Source: Lineavirus I22
Sequence record: NC_001332.1
Strand: one strand, 5' to 3'
DNA length: 6,744 nt
Positions 1 through 6,744 of the stretch are shown one piece after another (the stretch's first letter is position 1; every line of letters begins with the position of its first letter). The notes under the pieces are model-generated. The model had not been told where the DNA came from and made no database searches. It was given only the letters and a program-made list of their open reading frames with translations. The translations under genes were made by a program, and so were the position numbers.

Positions 1-984
1 AAGCTTCATCATTTCCCGCAGGTAGGCAGATATGCAAAACAATGTCGTGTTATGCGCATTGCAGACAAGCCCACTTTAGAGGATTTAGAGGCCATTGGTC
101 GCGGCAATCTTTCTTATGATGAATCAAAAAACGGCCTTATTGTTTTAGATGAGTGTGGCACGTGGTTTAATTCCCGCAACTGGAGTGATAAAAGTCGCCA
201 GCCTGTTATAGACTGGTTTTTACATGCCCGTAAATTAGGCTGGGATGTAATTTTTATTATTCAGGATATTTCCCTGATGGATAAGCAGGCACGCGAGGCT
301 TTAGCCGAACATGTTGTTTATTGCCGTCGATTAGATAAATTAAATATACCTATCATTGGTGGTTTAATTTCGGTTCTTTCAGGTGGTAGATTGCCATTAC
401 CGAAAGTTCACTTTGGTATTGTTAAATATGGTGATAATCCTCAGTCATTAACTGTAGATAAATGGATTTATACTGGTACAGATTTATATGCTGCTTACGA
501 TACTAAGCAGATATTTACCAGTGACCGTGAATTAAGCCCGCCATTCTGCCCCGTTTCGCCTTATTACACTCATGGCATATTTGCCGTTAAAAGGGATGCT
601 AAATATTATATGCGTATGACAAAAATCTATTTTAAGAAGATGAATCGTGTTTGGTTAATGGCTTCCTTTCTTGCTCTTGGTGCTGGCGTAGGGTTTTTTT
701 ATAAATCTCGCCAGATAAATGAGCAACTATCAAATATGCCTGTAGCGTCTGCTCAGGCTAATACCACTAAAACAGATCACACCATTGATGAATTGCCACG
801 ATTATCGATCAACTCATTTGCACAAATGGGTTATGATGTAAATGTAAGTTTTAAAGATGCAAAGGGAAAAATCTATTACTCATTTGATTTAATGAAATCT
901 GGTTATGCCTTAGATATTAAAGATTCCTGTCATATTACATTGCGTAAACGAAACTACATTCAGCAAGTTACTTGTGAAGGCTAA
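1..984 (+). CDS. I: Gene I protein (pI, Zot-like assembly ATPase), C-terminal part; continues in frame from 6631..6744 across the circular junction
   Basis: Frame 1 is open from position 1 (KLHHFPQVGRYAKQCRVMRIADKP...), so the ORF-track Met at 52 is internal. IADKPTLEDLEAIGRGNLSYDESKNGLIVLDECGTWFNSRNWSDKSRQPVIDWFLHARKLGWDVIFIIQD...AEHVVYCRRLD is near-collinear with Ff pI as I recall it. Hydrophobic membrane span VWLMASFLALGAGVGFFY. Stop TAA at 982-984. Confidence 0.9.
   Translation, partial: KLHHFPQVGRYAKQCRVMRIADKPTLEDLEAIGRGNLSYDESKNGLIVLDECGTWFNSRNWSDKSRQPVIDWFLHARKLGWDVIFIIQDISLMDKQAREALAEHVVYCRRLDKLNIPIIGGLISVLSGGRLPLPKVHFGIVKYGDNPQSLTVDKWIYTGTDLYAAYDTKQIFTSDRELSPPFCPVSPYYTHGIFAVKRDAKYYMRMTKIYFKKMNRVWLMASFLALGAGVGFFYKSRQINEQLSNMPVASAQANTTKTDHTIDELPRLSINSFAQMGYDVNVSFKDAKGKIYYSFDLMKSGYALDIKDSCHITLRKRNYIQQVTCEG
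610..984 (+). CDS. XI: pXI (I*), internal in-frame translation start within gene I
   Basis: In-frame ATG at 610 (MRMTKIYFKKMNRVW...) aligns with the Ff pXI start (MKLTKIYLKK...) just upstream of the membrane span. By analogy with Ff; the start is not verifiable from sequence alone. Confidence 0.45.
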   Translation: MRMTKIYFKKMNRVWLMASFLALGAGVGFFYKSRQINEQLSNMPVASAQANTTKTDHTIDELPRLSINSFAQMGYDVNVSFKDAKGKIYYSFDLMKSGYALDIKDSCHITLRKRNYIQQVTCEG

Positions 985-2273: not shown

Positions 2274-2278
2274 GGGTG

Positions 2279-2305
2279 CGGGGTAGGTGCGTTAGCCCTG
2301 CCCCG
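2279..2305 (+). other. GC-rich hairpin just after the gene IV stop; candidate packaging (morphogenetic) signal or part of it
   Basis: 5' arm CGGGGTAGG (2279-2287) pairs with 3' arm CCTGCCCCG (2297-2305): 9 bp including one G-T wobble, 9-nt loop. No T-run follows, so not a classic intrinsic terminator. In Ff the packaging hairpin sits at this position. Confidence 0.4.
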
Positions 2306-2353
2306 TATCCTCACAGCGTCCCCTGACCCGTATCATTCGCTTATCGCCGTATG
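2295..2353 (+). repeat. Iteron-like direct repeats CCCTG(C/A)CCCGTATC with a third partial copy GCCGTATG
   Basis: GCCCTGCCCCGTATCC (2295-2310) and CCCCTGACCCGTATCA (2320-2335) are 25 nt apart with one mismatch in the 14-nt core. CCGTAT recurs at 2347-2352 and ACGTAT at 2380-2385. Confidence 0.4.
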
Positions 2354-2596
2354 TGCTTCCCTGTCTTGTCCCTAAGGCTACGTATTGCCTCCCCGTTTAA
2401 ATCGTCAAGCTATAAATCGTGGGGGCCCCATCGCCCTGTTAAGCTGCCTTTTTTCCTGCGATCCTCCCGCCTCTCTGTTGTCTGACGGTCGCAGACGAAC
2501 AGGACGTTACAGCCATTGTTTTTCGTTCTGCTGGCTTCTTTTTTTGGGGGGTGTACTCTTGTTGCAAAATCGCAACGCAGCGGGGGTTAAATCATG

Positions 2597-2672
2597 CTGC
2601 ACGAAAGTCTCACTTTCGGGATTTTGGTTTTTGGATTTCTGCTGCGGAGTCAGGCGGGGCGGGGTGAACGTG
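2597..2672 (+). other. Nested inverted-repeat structure in a G-tract-rich segment; candidate ssDNA origin element (minus-strand priming site)
   Basis: CTGCACG (2597-2603) is complementary to CGTGCAG (2666-2672). Inner hairpin CGAAAGT-ctc-ACTTTCG (2602-2618). G-tracts at 2545-2550, 2582-2586 and 2655-2664. Functional assignment is inference. Confidence 0.3.
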
Positions 2673-2743
2673 CAGTGTATGTAATACTGCAACGTTTGTC
2701 TCAATCTGATACCTCTCTACTAAACGCCTCCTTTCTTTTTAAG

Positions 2744-2754
2744 CTCTTTAATCA
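2744..2754 (+). promoter_or_regulatory. Candidate plus-strand origin nick-site core (CTCTTTAATCA)
   Basis: Resembles the Ff pII nicking region TTCTTTAAT^AGTGG as I recall it (9 of 11 identical), in a T-rich context upstream of gene II. Hypothesis only. Confidence 0.25.
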
Positions 2755-3002
2755 TTTTCTTTTCTGCTAATTCTGTATAGTTTTCAATGACATAGTTTAA
2801 GTGAATCTGTCCATGTGACCTGTACGCCCGTACTTGTACTAATCCTGATCGCAGTATCACTCAGGTTTTTCTTTTTCTCGGTGGTGATACTGGCTGTTGT
2901 CCTAACTGGTTTTTTCATTTTATGCCTTTGAAAAATATAAAGTTTCTACCGAAAATAGGTTTTTAAGCGTAATCTTATTGTCAATAGATGTAAAAATTTT
3001 TG

Positions 3003-3030
3003 TTGCGCACGTTATTTTTCACGCTATCAT
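3003..3030 (+). promoter_or_regulatory. Candidate sigma70 promoter for gene II
   Basis: TTGCGC (3003-3008), 16-nt spacer, TATCAT (3025-3030), about 60 nt upstream of the gene II start in an AT-rich region. Imperfect hexamers. Confidence 0.3.
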
Positions 3031-3052
3031 GCCTGCATTGGATTTCATCTTG

Positions 3053-3070
3053 ATACGTGTATACACGTAT
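3053..3070. promoter_or_regulatory. 18-bp perfect palindrome ATACGTGTATACACGTAT in the gene II leader; candidate operator or RNA hairpin
   Basis: Self-complementary by inspection (core ACGTGTATACACGT, 3055-3068). Ends 9 nt before the SD (AGGG, 3080-3083) of gene II. Confidence 0.4.
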
Positions 3071-3090
3071 ACATCACTAAGGGAATGCGT

Positions 3091-4125
3091 ATGATTGATT
3101 GGGTTACAGCCGTCTTGCCTTGTCTGCATGTGCCTGTTGATGCTGGTCGCGTCCTCTCTGTTGCGCCGGATGGCTCTGTAGAATGGGAATCAGTAAAGTT
3201 TTCCCGCGTTACTGGCTCCTTTCAAAGCTCCATCAGTGTACGTTCGCAGGGTTCTGACGGTAATGGGAAAGCCACTCATTTATACGTTGATGGTAACCCG
3301 TCAAAGTGGTTGCAGGGTCATAATATCGTTGGAAGCGACGATCTCAACGGCCTTATGATTGCTTTTTACGCTCGTATGTTGTCACTACTCAATATACCTC
3401 ACCATCTAGAATCGTATCGTCAGGTGCTTTCTGGTCAGTACGAGCTAAAGCGCGTTGACATTAACTACATGTTTGAGCTTCCTACGCTCATTGATGTACG
3501 GTCATGGTTACATGCTGCTGAGTTCAAGGCTAAGACTCGTCACGGGCGCCCGGCAACTGCAAAGGGCACTCTGTACTTTGGTAAAAATTCTCGCCGTTGG
3601 TCTATTAAGGCTTACAGCAAATATGATGAAGTAAATTGCGGGAAAAAAGCTCATGGCGTTCCCGAAGAAATTAAGAAAACTGGCCTTGTTGAATGGTCTA
3701 AAAATAAATTACGTCTAGAATTAACATTACGCGCATTGCAGCTTACTGATATTAATTTAAACTTTGCTAAAAACTGGTCTACTGAAACTGCATATACTGT
3801 TTTTAAAGAATATATGGGGCGTATCGAAATGAGCGGAAATACTTTACTTACTGATACTCAAGTTATTAATTTACCGTCTGCGCTACGTATGACTTATGTG
3901 TGCTGGAAACAGGGCATTTGTGTAACAGATATGGTATCTCGCGCCACTTATTTTCGTCACCGCAAGGTTTTAAAAGAATTTGGTATTGATATTGCTGTTA
4001 CTGTTGATCGTGTTGATAATAGCAACGTTGTTCCGTTAATCCGTGTCTTAGAGGCTAAACCTGCTTCTATTCCTTCTCAATATGATAATTTAATATTTTC
4101 ATCTAATCGTGTATCAAGTTTCTAA
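3091..4125 (+). CDS. II: Gene II protein (rolling-circle replication initiator/nickase), divergent and shorter than Ff pII
   Basis: 344 aa from ATG 3091 (MIDWV..., compare Ff pII MIDMLV...). SD AGGG at 3080-3083 is 7 nt upstream; the ORF-track ATG at 3085 has no spacer. By-eye motif matches to Ff pII: SKWLQGHNIVGSDDL vs AKVLQGHNVFGTTDL, and NVVPLIRV vs NVVPLVRF near the C-terminus. The rest is poorly conserved; Ff pII is about 410 aa. Confidence 0.8.
   Translation: MIDWVTAVLPCLHVPVDAGRVLSVAPDGSVEWESVKFSRVTGSFQSSISVRSQGSDGNGKATHLYVDGNPSKWLQGHNIVGSDDLNGLMIAFYARMLSLLNIPHHLESYRQVLSGQYELKRVDINYMFELPTLIDVRSWLHAAEFKAKTRHGRPATAKGTLYFGKNSRRWSIKAYSKYDEVNCGKKAHGVPEEIKKTGLVEWSKNKLRLELTLRALQLTDINLNFAKNWSTETAYTVFKEYMGRIEMSGNTLLTDTQVINLPSALRMTYVCWKQGICVTDMVSRATYFRHRKVLKEFGIDIAVTVDRVDNSNVVPLIRVLEAKPASIPSQYDNLIFSSNRVSSF
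3829..4125 (+). CDS. X: pX, in-frame internal start within gene II (C-terminal domain product)
   Basis: In-frame ATGs at 3814 and 3829 (YMGRIEMSGN...) align with the Ff pX start (FEGDSMNIYDD). ATG 3829 has GGGG 7-12 nt upstream; 3814 is the alternative. By analogy only. Confidence 0.4.
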   Translation: MSGNTLLTDTQVINLPSALRMTYVCWKQGICVTDMVSRATYFRHRKVLKEFGIDIAVTVDRVDNSNVVPLIRVLEAKPASIPSQYDNLIFSSNRVSSF

Positions 4126-4135
4126 GGGGTTTTAA

Positions 4136-4462
4136 ATGCACTCAGGTATTCTTATTCGTGGTCGTATTCTCGGTTCTCGCACTGCAAACCGTGATAATAA
4201 TTCGCCGCAACATATTTTAGGCGTTGGCATTCAGAAAGCTGACGGTTTTGGCGGTACGACTCAGGATGTTGAGCAGGTTAAAATTCCTGACCAGCTTGTG
4301 CAAAGCGGCGTTGTTAATCAGATTAATTCGCTTATTGGCAAACTTTGCGAAGTACCGATTAATGTTCGTTCTTGGTCTATGAACGGCAAAAACGGCACTT
4401 CTTACACTCTGTCTTTTGAGTCCGGTATTCAGGAGATTGAAGAGCTGATTTATGTCAGATGA
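4136..4462 (+). CDS. Gene-V-position protein, putative ssDNA-binding protein; no recognisable similarity to Ff/IKe pV
   Basis: 108-aa ORF with SD AAGGGG (4124-4129) about 6 nt before the ATG, immediately after gene II and overlapping the gene VII start. Function inferred from synteny only; the sequence does not resemble Ff pV as I recall it. Confidence 0.6.
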   Translation: MHSGILIRGRILGSRTANRDNNSPQHILGVGIQKADGFGGTTQDVEQVKIPDQLVQSGVVNQINSLIGKLCEVPINVRSWSMNGKNGTSYTLSFESGIQEIEELIYVR

Positions 4463-4541
4463 ACTAATTCACGTAGTAATAGCTCTCGGCCTCGTTATTT
4501 CCTTCGGTTTGGGTGCTATTACTGCTGGGGTACTCCGATGA
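4452..4541 (+). CDS. VII: pVII-like minor coat protein
   Basis: 29-aa hydrophobic peptide MSDELIHVVIALGLVISFGLGAITAGVLR, comparable to Ff pVII. Start overlaps the gene V-position ORF stop by 11 nt; stop TGA overlaps the gene IX ATG (ATGA). Confidence 0.6.
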   Translation: MSDELIHVVIALGLVISFGLGAITAGVLR

Positions 4542-4974: not shown

Positions 4975-6279
4975 GTGAAAAGAAAAATAATAGCAATTTC
5001 TTTATTTTTATACATCCCTTTGTCTAATGCTGATAATTGGGAGTCTATTACTAAAAGCTATTATACTGGCTTTGCCATGTCTAAAACTGTTGAATCAAAA
5101 GATCAGGATGGTAAAACAGTTCGTAAAGAGGTTATAACTCAGGCTGATTTAACTACCGCCTGTAATGATGCTAAAGCCTCCGCGCAAGATGTTTTTAATC
5201 AAATGAAGCTAACATTTTCTGGTATATGGCCTGATTCTCAGTTTCGCCTTGTAACTGGTGATACCTGCGTTTATAACGGTTCGCCTAGTGAAAAAACTGA
5301 AAGTTGGTCTATTCGCGCTCAGGTTGAGGGTGATATGCAACGTTCTGTACCAGATGAAGAACCTTCTGAACAAACGCCAGAAGAAATCTGTGAAGCAAAA
5401 CCTCCTATTGATGGCGTCTTTAATAACGTCTCTAAGGGTGACGAAGGAGGCTTTTATATTAATTATAATGGCTGCGAATATGAGGCAACTGGCGTCACTG
5501 TTTGCCAGAATGATGGAACTGTCTGTGCCTCCTCCGCTTGGAAGCCAACTGGTTACGTTCCCGAATCTGGAGAATCTTCCTCCTCTCCTGTGAAAGATGG
5601 TGACACTGGCGGTACTGGTGAAGGTGGTTCTGATACTGGCGGTGATACTGGTGGCGGTGATACTGGTGGTGGTTCTACTGGCGGCGATACTGGCGGTTCT
5701 ACTGGTGGCGGTTCTACTGGTGGCGGTTCTACTGGTGGATCAACTGGTAAATCACTGACAAAGGAAGATGTAACCGCAGCAATACATGATGCTTCCCCTT
5801 CTATTGGTGATGCTGTTAAAGATTCCCTTACAGAAGATAATGACCAGAACGACAATCAGAAGAAAGCAGATGAACAATCAGCTAAAGCCTCTGCTTCTGT
5901 ATCTGATGCTATCTCTGATGGTATGCGTGGCGTTGGTAATTTCGTTGACGATCTTGGCGGTGAGTCGTCGCAATACGGAATCGGTAATTCTGAAATGGAT
6001 CTCTCCGTTAGCCTGGCTAAAGGGCAACTTGGAATTGATCTTGAAGGTCATGGTTCAGCTTGGGAATCCTTTTTAAATGACGGTGCTTTACGTCCCTCCA
6101 TTCCTTCTGGTCATGGCTGTACTGATTTTGTCATGTTTCAGGGTTCTGTTTATCAGCTTGATATTGGCTGCGATAAATTAGGCGATATTAAGTCTGTATT
6201 ATCTTGGGTTATGTATTGCCTTACCTTCTGGTATGTATTCCAGTCTGCTACTTCATTACTTCGTAAAGGTGAACAATAA
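4975..6279 (+). CDS. III: pIII minor coat / adsorption protein
   Basis: 434 aa with GTG start (Ff gene III also starts with GTG). Signal peptide [19 protein letters not shown], Cys-containing N-terminal receptor-binding domains, Gly/Ser/Thr/Asp-rich linker, hydrophobic C-terminal anchor ([15 protein letters not shown]). Stop TAA overlaps the gene VI ATG (TAATG). Confidence 0.9.
5599..5748 (+). repeat. Imperfect tandem 15-nt repeats encoding the glycine-rich pIII linker
   Basis: Repeated GGTGGCGGTTCTACT-like units encoding [50 protein letters not shown]. Confidence 0.85.
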
Positions 6280-6630: not shown

Positions 6631-6744
6631 ATGGCTGTTTATGTTGTTACCGGAAAATTAGGCGCAGGCAAGACGCTTGTAGCTGTATCGCGTATACAAA
6701 GGACTTTAGCTAAAGGTGGTATTGTTGCCACCAATCTAAATTTA
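6631..6744 (+). CDS. I: Gene I protein (pI), N-terminal 38 codons; continues at window position 1
   Basis: MAVYVVTGKLGAGKTLVAVSRIQ... contains the Walker A P-loop GKLGAGKT and matches the Ff pI N-terminus (MAVYFVTGKLGSGKTLVSV). Frame (6631+114=6745) joins frame 1 of the window start exactly. Confidence 0.9.
   Translation, partial: MAVYVVTGKLGAGKTLVAVSRIQRTLAKGGIVATNLNL

What the first reader, a model, noticed from the sequence alone, without database searches (positions are those of the whole stretch)
5599..5748. Recombination-prone tandem repeats in the pIII linker, with a mirror-image antisense ORF artefact
The Gly-rich linker is encoded by about ten imperfect 15-nt repeats. Such arrays expand and contract by slippage and can alter linker length and infectivity. 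The reverse strand of the same repeats yields the proline-rich ORF 5553..5855, which is a compositional artefact.
Basis: seen in the sequence. Interest (0 to 1): 0.3.

Follow-up and report, generated by a model that had tools for sequence, protein, structure and literature searches.

The report
Repeat-encoded flexible linker of phage pIII
The flagged stretch is the glycine-rich flexible tether of the attachment protein of filamentous phage I2-2, encoded by short tandem DNA repeats whose copy number changes among related phages; the reverse-strand "gene" is a by-product of the composition, and all of this is ordinary and already described.

Summary
The window is the complete 6744-nt genome of phage I2-2. 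Its gene III product (4975..6279) is 100% identical to the deposited I2-2 protein.

- **Repeats.** Nucleotides 5602..5748 hold 11 head-to-tail units: six of 15 nt, four of 12 nt, one of 9 nt ([D/S]TGG(G)). They form two 54-nt super-units (47/54 identical) and include a perfect 48-nt period-15 tract. The repetition far exceeds codon-shuffle controls and exceeds what the protein sequence demands.
- **Protein role.** The array encodes residues 210-258, which AlphaFold leaves unstructured, between the TolA-binding N1 domain and the C-terminal virion anchor.
- **Copy-number change.** It is real in this clade. Two IKe-like phages with otherwise identical gene III differ by one clean 39-nt tandem duplication. 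Others carry +30 nt, a 23-aa duplication, or -54 nt. In UPφ-like prophages, proteins with identical flanks differ by three GGGES units. Even so, 67 residues between anchors is the mode, and I2-2, IKe and most close relatives share it.
- **Antisense ORF.** ORF 5553..5855 exists but is an artefact. The frame cannot close where Tyr/His/Gln codons are absent, and it stays open for at least 76 codons in every synonymous recoding. A synonymous change breaks it in PEar. It has no Shine-Dalgarno sequence (SD), promoter or homologue.

Verdict: observation confirmed, interpretation supported, already published.

The parts
4975..6279 (+). Gene III (attachment protein pIII/G3P), GTG start, 434 aa
   Evidence: ORF. 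100% identical to 'gene III product [Lineavirus I22]' (P0001). PHROG 4150 E=1.5e-222.
5035..5349 (+). N-terminal pilus-binding domain (residues 21-125)
   Evidence: Pfam PF21443 E=1.5e-72. PDB 4EO0 covers residues 20-128. pLDDT 86-95.
5362..5571 (+). N1-type TolA-binding domain (residues 130-199)
   Evidence: PDB 4EO1 E=2e-42 over residues 130-199. Pfam PF05357.
5572..5601 (+). Ser/Pro-rich lead-in of the linker ([10 protein letters not shown])
   Evidence: Read from the sequence. pLDDT falls across this stretch.
5602..5748 (+). Tandem repeat array: 11 units of 15/12/9 nt encoding [D/S]TGG(G); residues 210-258
   Evidence: pLDDT below 50 and no secondary structure for residues 209-262.
5632..5685 (+). 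54-nt super-unit A ([18 protein letters not shown])
   Evidence: TRF period 54, score 173. 47/54 identical to super-unit B.
5686..5739 (+). 54-nt super-unit B ([18 protein letters not shown])
5691..5738 (+). Perfect period-15 tandem tract (48 nt, 3.2 copies), the best slippage substrate. Its third unit is I2-2-specific: TCT ACT where every compared relative has TCG TCC or TCG TCT.
   Evidence: tract; codon alignment with 12 relatives.
5749..6276 (+). C-terminal domain (virion anchor, membrane helix near the C terminus)
   Evidence: PDB 8B3O, f1 pIII, E=2.9e-15. Helices predicted from residue 263.
5553..5855 (-). Antisense ORF of 100 aa (TTG start, Pro/Val/Glu/Ser-rich): compositional artefact
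   Evidence: ORF; no family; open frame forced by composition; broken in PEar, P0015, P0016 and P0017; no SD; no promoter-like site.
5597..5758 (+). Out-of-frame + strand ORF of 53 aa (Leu/Val/Ala-rich): second compositional artefact of the same repeats
   Evidence: No Pfam or PHROG match.
5536..5690 (+). Tract nearly identical to Erwinia phage PEar (2 substitutions in 155 nt against 22% elsewhere in the gene). Its right edge is a 3-nt indel inside the array. Probable inter-phage recombination tract.

Best explanation
The region is the repeat-encoded, intrinsically disordered Gly/Ser/Thr/Asp tether of the I2-2 attachment protein pIII. It joins the receptor-binding head (pilus-binding N2, then TolA-binding N1) to the C-terminal domain that anchors the protein in the virion tip. 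It lets the head reach the pilus tip and then TolA. That role is inferred from Ff and IKe biology.

At the DNA level it is a degenerate coding minisatellite of 12- and 15-nt units nested in two 54-nt super-units. Because the units are near-identical and in frame, replication slippage or unequal or homologous exchange adds, removes or overwrites whole units. Related phages show this; the mechanism is inferred. Most close relatives nevertheless keep the same total length.

The reverse-strand ORF and the out-of-frame forward ORF are not genes. They are open only because the repeated codons (GGT, GGC, ACT, GAT, TCT) cannot generate stop codons in those frames.
For: Identity and architecture. Disorder exactly over the array.

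Real DNA repeats:
- TRF score 173, against a maximum of 58 (gene-wide codon shuffles) or 144 (linker-only shuffles).
- 32 repeated 12-mers, against a mean of 4.1 under synonymous resampling (2 of 5000 reach 32).

Copy-number change at constant background:
- P0066 and P0069 have 0 differences in 603 nt upstream and 528 nt downstream, and a single 39-nt (15+12+12) tandem duplication with a 9-nt ambiguity window.
- P0069 equals the IKe type plus 30 nt.
- An IKe gene III construct carries a perfect 23-aa tandem duplication.
- P0017 is 18 aa shorter than P0015, and P0021 is 5 aa longer than P0017.
- P0024 and P0031 have 100% identical flanks and differ by 15 aa.

Unit overwriting without length change: the I2-2 unit at 5728 reads TCT ACT, where all 12 compared relatives have TCG TCC or TCG TCT. 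That is 2-3 changes within 6 nt, and it makes the unit identical to its two upstream neighbours.

Inter-phage exchange ending inside the array.

Literature: PMC7307601 reports that most g3p variation among 229 UPφ genomes lies in the number of Gly-rich repeats, and cites lab diversification of this region in IKe.

Antisense artefact:
- The open run is at least 76 codons in all 20000 synonymous recodings, and at least 100 codons in 15.6% of them.
- The open frame is 77 codons in PEar, 68 in P0015, 57 in P0016 and 50 in P0017.
- There is no family match, SD or promoter-like site.
Against: No length heterogeneity was measured within an I2-2 population; all evidence is comparative.

Thirteen of 16 protein clusters in the closest clade, PEar (+1 codon) and both copies in the E. 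coli 572 replicative-form (RF) dimer keep 67 or 68 residues. The I2-2-type imperfect array is therefore much more stable than the perfect GGGES and GGGDT arrays of UPφ-like phages.

Slippage cannot be told apart from recA-dependent unequal exchange using sequence alone.

The tether function is inferred from homology and predicted disorder, not tested. The only experiment cited for IKe found no fitness effect of a longer linker (via PMC7307601).
Confidence: 0.9

Rival explanations
1. The repetition is only protein-level low complexity (selection for Gly/Ser/Thr) and the DNA array is static. The length differences among relatives would then be ordinary indels unrelated to the repeat structure.
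For: Most close relatives share exactly the same length. The small differences in the nearest clade are single-codon indels: one extra Gly in PEar and in P0014.
Against: DNA repetition exceeds what the protein demands (2 of 5000 resamplings). The indels are whole units or unit combinations in register with the repeat: 39 nt = 15+12+12, 30 nt = 2x15, 69 nt, 54 nt and 15 nt. They occur against otherwise identical genes.
Confidence: 0.05
2. The first half of the array carries a DNA- or RNA-level functional element, with synonymous sites under constraint. That would explain the near-identity between I2-2/IKe and the otherwise 20%-divergent PEar phages.
For: I2-2 against PEar shows synonymous differences at 2 of 52 identical-residue codons in residues 185-240, against 103 of 301 elsewhere (Fisher p=9e-7). 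Only 2 substitutions fall in 5536..5690.
Against: The same segment is more divergent than the rest of the gene in P0012, P0013, P0015 and P0016 (19-33% against 10-20%; synonymous 30-36% against 12-20%). There is no general constraint, and the pattern fits a mosaic recombination tract. No Rfam family and no promoter-like site were found. The region was chosen after seeing the data.
Confidence: 0.05
3. The antisense ORF 5553..5855 encodes a real proline-rich protein that overlaps gene III.
For: It is 100 codons long and stays open at 98-101 codons in the ten closest relatives.
Against: - The open frame is forced by the amino-acid sequence: at least 76 codons in every synonymous recoding, and codon-order shuffles of gene III reach 100 codons in 14% of trials.
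- A synonymous ATA-to-ATT change truncates it in PEar, and it is shorter in P0015, P0016 and P0017.
- The TTG start sits directly against the preceding stop, with no SD.
- There is no promoter-like site on either strand and no Pfam or PHROG match.
- Every ORF over 100 aa that has a known function lies on the + strand.
Confidence: 0.02

Closest known systems
Glycine-rich region of phage IKe G3P (gene III)
   Same: The gene is 95% identical in DNA, with the same length (1305 nt), the same domain order and the same 11-unit array. Variants with longer arrays exist in IKe-like phages and in a deposited IKe construct. Lab diversification is reported through the citation in PMC7307601.
   Different: The last three long units of I2-2 are all TCT ACT (ST). 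IKe has SS in all three, and most relatives have mixed ST/SS. I2-2 therefore has the longest perfect period-15 tract in the comparison: 48 nt.
GGGES / GGGDT repeat region of g3p in UPφ-like integrating inoviruses (Shapiro & Putonti 2020, PMC7307601)
   Same: Same position in a homologous protein (about 50% identity). The linker is encoded by tandem units, and copy number is the main source of protein variation.
   Different: UPφ arrays are near-perfect 15-nt (5-aa) repeats with 3 to 9 copies and vary between otherwise identical proteins. The I2-2 array is degenerate, with mixed 12- and 15-nt units, and its length is mostly conserved.
Ff (M13/fd/f1) pIII glycine-rich linkers
   Same: Flexible Gly/Ser-rich tethers between pIII domains that are invisible in cryo-EM (PMC10175506, PMC10424213). 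The C domain is homologous (8B3O).
   Different: Ff has two linkers and the domain order N1-N2-C. I2-2 and IKe have the order N2-N1-C, a short Pro/Glu hinge between the head domains, and a single long Gly-rich linker.

Membership tests
Lineavirus-type attachment protein G3P | N-terminal pilus-binding domain of the IKe type | tested here: met
   PF21443 E=1.5e-72, residues 21-125. PDB 4EO0 E=1.7e-62.
Lineavirus-type attachment protein G3P | TolA-binding N1 domain following the pilus-binding domain | tested here: met
   PF05357. PDB 4EO1 E=2e-42, residues 130-199.
Lineavirus-type attachment protein G3P | C-terminal virion-anchor domain homologous to Ff pIII C domain; gene order VIII-III-VI | tested here: met
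   8B3O E=2.9e-15. ORF order matches the IKe annotation.
Lineavirus-type attachment protein G3P | Disordered Gly-rich linker between N1 and C | tested here: met
   pLDDT 31-34 and no secondary structure for residues 209-262.
Copy-number-variable coding tandem repeat (slippage/unequal exchange) | Head-to-tail DNA units more similar than the protein sequence requires | tested here: met
Copy-number-variable coding tandem repeat (slippage/unequal exchange) | In-frame whole-unit gains or losses between otherwise identical or near-identical genes | tested here: met
   P0066 against P0069: 39-nt duplication, 0 other differences. P0024 against P0031. P0075.
Copy-number-variable coding tandem repeat (slippage/unequal exchange) | Length heterogeneity within one phage population or on passage | not testable with these tools
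   Needs reads from an I2-2 stock. Reported for IKe only through the citation in PMC7307601. The two gene III copies in the E. coli 572 RF dimer are identical.
Overlapping antisense protein-coding gene | ORF conserved beyond what the sense-strand protein forces | tested here: not met
   PEar breaks the ORF with a synonymous change.
Overlapping antisense protein-coding gene | Translation and transcription signals; homologues | tested here: not met
   TTG start without SD. No promoter-like site. No Pfam or PHROG match.

The most novel reading that the evidence does not exclude
Linker length, rather than sequence, may be under stabilising selection in the non-integrating, plasmid-pilus-dependent IKe/I2-2 lineage. 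Sixty-seven residues between the WKPTG and LTKED anchors recurs in lineages whose units have been rewritten (I2-2 and IKe DTGG/STGGG; P0015 and P0020 GETGG; P0016 GDSGG) through compensating indels. Integrating UPφ-like relatives drift freely between 41 and 76. The array would then act as a molecular ruler for the reach from the virion tip to TolA. Repeat turnover, unit conversion and inter-phage exchange that ends inside the array would supply variation, and selection would trim it back.
Probability: 0.2. Interest if true: 0.35.

Novelty: already known. Interest (0 to 1): 0.15.

Why it matters
The finding matters little for discovery. Gly-rich, repeat-encoded pIII linkers and their copy-number variation are documented for IKe and UPφ phages and are familiar from phage-display work.

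It has practical value for three reasons:
- The array is a place where assemblies and annotations go wrong. Examples here are frameshifted deposits and spurious ORFs on both strands.
- It is a natural junction for domain swapping in engineered phages.
- It explains why gene III is the most variable gene in these phages.

The contrast between length-stable degenerate arrays and length-variable perfect arrays could be used to ask whether tether length matters for infection.

Tried and rejected
1. Synonymous-site constraint or a hidden element in the first half of the array. The idea came from 0-2 synonymous differences between I2-2 and PEar. I rejected it because P0012, P0013, P0015 and P0016 are more divergent there than in the rest of the gene, and because Rfam and the promoter/terminator scan found nothing. 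I reinterpreted the pattern as a recombination tract.
2. The 419-aa homologues looked like 15-aa linker deletions. They are only N-terminally truncated gene calls (internal start) with the same linker.
3. The genome contigs and viral-contig scans with alignment A1 gave almost nothing: IKe itself, one partial relative L007, and one spurious 39-residue hit. The tool chose signal-peptide patterns.
4. The PLSDB plasmid collection had no match. E. coli complete genomes had a single RF dimer.
5. I could not read the primary paper on IKe linker variation (Bruno & Bradbury 1997). It is not in the library, so I cite it only through PMC7307601.
6. I considered G-quadruplex or ssDNA structure in the G-rich packaged strand (GC skew +0.29 at 5575-5724) but did not test it. 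Only two-G runs are present.

Full report
**What the window is.** The 6744-nt window is a complete, circularly permuted genome of an IKe-like filamentous phage. All long ORFs lie on the + strand. Megablast against phage records finds IKe over 49% of the window at 86% identity, and the Erwinia PEar phages at 81%. The product of the ORF at 4975..6279 is 100% identical to 'gene III product [Lineavirus I22]' / UniProt G3P_BPI22, from a 6744-nt contig. The window is therefore phage I2-2.

**Checking the observation.**
- TRF finds overlapping arrays between 5631 and 5748. Periods are 54 (1.9 copies, 90% matches, score 173), 27, 15 (7.2 copies, 78% matches, 12% indels) and 12.
- The repeat finder shows copies spaced alternately 12 and 15 nt apart.
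- Read in frame, 5602..5748 consists of 11 units: [49 protein letters not shown]. Six are 15 nt, four are 12 nt and one is 9 nt.
- The units nest into two 54-nt super-units, 5632-5685 and 5686-5739, which are 47/54 identical. A perfect period-15 tract of 48 nt lies at 5691..5738.
- Controls: shuffling the codons of gene III gives a maximum TRF score that averages 26 (highest 58). Shuffling only the linker codons gives a mean of 62 (highest 144), and 0 of 200 shuffles reach 173.
- Resampling synonymous codons from the rest of gene III gives 4.1 repeated 12-mers on average, against 32 observed; 2 of 5000 resamplings reach 32. The repeat is therefore a DNA-level feature and not just a repetitive peptide.
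A second spurious ORF, 5597..5758 on the + strand in another frame (53 aa, Leu/Val-rich), comes from the same repeats.

**What it is.**
- pIII has the IKe architecture. Its parts, in order, are a signal peptide, the pilus-binding domain (PF21443, residues 21-125; PDB 4EO0), a short Pro/Glu hinge, the TolA-binding N1 domain (PF05357; PDB 4EO1, residues 130-199), the Gly-rich region, and a C domain homologous to f1 pIII (8B3O).
- An AlphaFold model built on 40 homologues is confident for both head domains. It predicts helices from residue 263. It leaves residues 209-262 at pLDDT 31-34 with no secondary structure, which coincides with the repeat array.
- By analogy with Ff pIII, whose Gly-rich linkers are flexible and invisible in cryo-EM (PMC10175506, PMC10424213), this is the flexible tether between the receptor-binding head and the virion tip. 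That functional step is an inference.

**Does the array change in length?** I defined the linker as the residues between the conserved anchors W-x-P-T-G and L-[ST]-K-x-D and measured it in 60 homologues and in further cluster members. Across the family it spans 29 to 76 residues.

| Group | Inter-anchor length or change |
|---|---|
| Closest clade (87% identity or more): I2-2, IKe and most others | 67 (the mode) |
| Closest clade: other values | 64, 65, 68, 77, 88, 90 |
| P0017/P0019 relative to P0015 (next clade) | -18 aa, the size of one super-unit |
| P0021 relative to P0017 (next clade) | +5 aa |
| P0024 against P0031 (UPφ-like, flanks 191/191 and 173/173 identical) | differ by three GGGES units |
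| P0028 against P0038 (UPφ-like, flanks 191/191 and 172/173 identical) | differ by 19 residues |

- The cleanest case is P0066 against P0069. Their gene III sequences have no difference in 603 nt upstream and 528 nt downstream. They differ only by a 39-nt (15+12+12) in-frame tandem duplication whose placement is ambiguous over 9 nt.
- P0069 in turn equals the IKe-type array plus two 15-nt units.
- A deposited IKe gene III construct (P0075) carries a perfect 23-residue tandem duplication.
- This matches the literature. [quoted passage not shown] The same paper cites Bruno & Bradbury 1997 for diversification of this region in IKe in the lab without a fitness effect (PMC7307601).

**Other traces of recombination.**
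- In I2-2 the unit at 5728 reads TCT ACT, identical to its two upstream neighbours. All 12 compared relatives have TCG TCC or TCG TCT there. That is two to three changes within six bases in genes about 5% divergent. One conversion or slippage event that overwrote a unit without changing length explains this better than independent point mutations. It also created the 48-nt perfect tract.
- I2-2 and PEar differ at 22% of positions across gene III but at only 2 of 155 positions in 5536..5690. That tract ends at a 3-nt indel inside the array. Synonymous differences are 2/52 inside against 103/301 outside (p=9e-7).
- P0012, P0013, P0015 and P0016 show the opposite pattern: more divergence inside than outside. 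This is mosaic ancestry and not constraint.
- I chose that region after seeing the data, so the p-value is indicative only.

**The antisense ORF.**
- In this frame the third codon positions coincide with those of gene III. A stop can arise only where a codon ending in T or C is followed by a Tyr codon, or a codon ending in T is followed by a His or Gln codon.
- Residues 194-270 contain no Tyr, His or Gln. The frame stays open for at least 76 codons in all 20000 synonymous recodings (median 96), and for at least 100 codons in 15.6% of them. Codon-order shuffles of gene III reach 100 codons in 14% of trials.
- The ORF keeps 98-101 codons in the closest relatives. It is cut to 77 codons in PEar by a synonymous ATA-to-ATT change, and to 68, 57 and 50 codons in P0015, P0016 and P0017.
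- Its TTG start sits directly against the previous stop with no Shine-Dalgarno sequence. No promoter-like site lies in 5300..6000 on either strand. It has no Pfam or PHROG match.
- The directly complementary frame is stop-free for 176 codons but has no early start codon. This shows how easily antisense frames stay open here.

**Comparison and novelty.**
- The closest known object is the glycine-rich region of IKe G3P. Gene III is 95% identical in DNA, with the same length and the same unit layout.
- Next closest are the GGGES/GGGDT arrays of UPφ-like phages and the Ff linkers.
- Every defining feature of a Lineavirus G3P linker and of a copy-number-variable coding repeat that could be tested was met. 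The features of a genuine antisense gene were not met.
- Nothing here is new in kind, and the finding is correct but already known.
- The one mildly interesting residue is that 67 residues recurs in lineages whose unit sequences differ (I2-2 and IKe against P0015, P0016 and P0020), while perfect-repeat arrays in integrating relatives vary freely. This could mean selection on tether length, or simply that degenerate repeats slip less. I give the selection reading about 0.2.

**Not shown.** Three things remain open: any effect of length on infectivity, heterogeneity within an I2-2 population, and the molecular mechanism (slippage or recA-dependent exchange).

Noticed in passing
window 1..984 and 6632..6744: The window is a whole circular genome cut inside gene I. 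The N-terminal Walker-A part (MAVYVVTGKLGAGKT...) sits at 6632..6744 and the rest of the protein continues at 1..984.
   Followed up: partly
window ~2274..4470: Only 49% of the window matches IKe or PEar by megablast. The intergenic region and the replication genes (for example ORF 3085..4125, 346 aa) have no close match there. From memory, this fits the published view that I2-2 exchanged its replication module.
   Followed up: no
P0020, P0022, P0023 (homologues of window 4975..6279): These proteins carry a different N-terminal (pilus-binding) domain, fused at the [10 protein letters not shown] hinge to an N1-linker-C part that is I2-2/P0015-like. P0018 and P0083 switch to another sequence type right after the linker. 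Gene III is a domain mosaic with junctions at the hinge and at the linker.
   Followed up: partly
P0075 (IKe gene III 'synthetic construct' AAW65363.1): Besides the 23-aa duplication, it contains KTVTLRTGKVVLILPVNR in place of [19 protein letters not shown]. That is the repeat read in the same alternative + frame as the spurious ORF 5597..5758. It is probably a compensated frameshift or a sequencing error in the repeat.
   Followed up: partly
L019 (E. coli strain 572 'plasmid' pCREC572-6, 14488 bp): The record annotated as a plasmid is a head-to-tail dimer of a ~7.24-kb IKe-like phage replicative form. The two gene III copies are identical, and one of the two gene II copies is frameshifted.
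   Followed up: partly
P0054 (480 aa, E. coli): This protein is a fusion of the gene III N-terminal part and linker to the C-terminal part of a gene I-like protein. That implies a deletion spanning the end of gene III, gene VI and the start of gene I in a defective prophage.
   Followed up: no
window 5598..5738 (query positions 624-764 of gene III): blastn finds 73-75% identity between this linker DNA and 'hypothetical protein' genes of several Vibrio cyclitrophicus inoviruses (H46-H49). This is probably convergent Gly-rich repeat coding and not homology.
   Followed up: no
window 5575..5724: The array is a local composition peak: GC 0.57 against about 0.40 in the flanks, and GC skew +0.29 on the + strand. 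In these phages, the + strand is the one packaged as ssDNA (from memory, not checked here).
   Followed up: no
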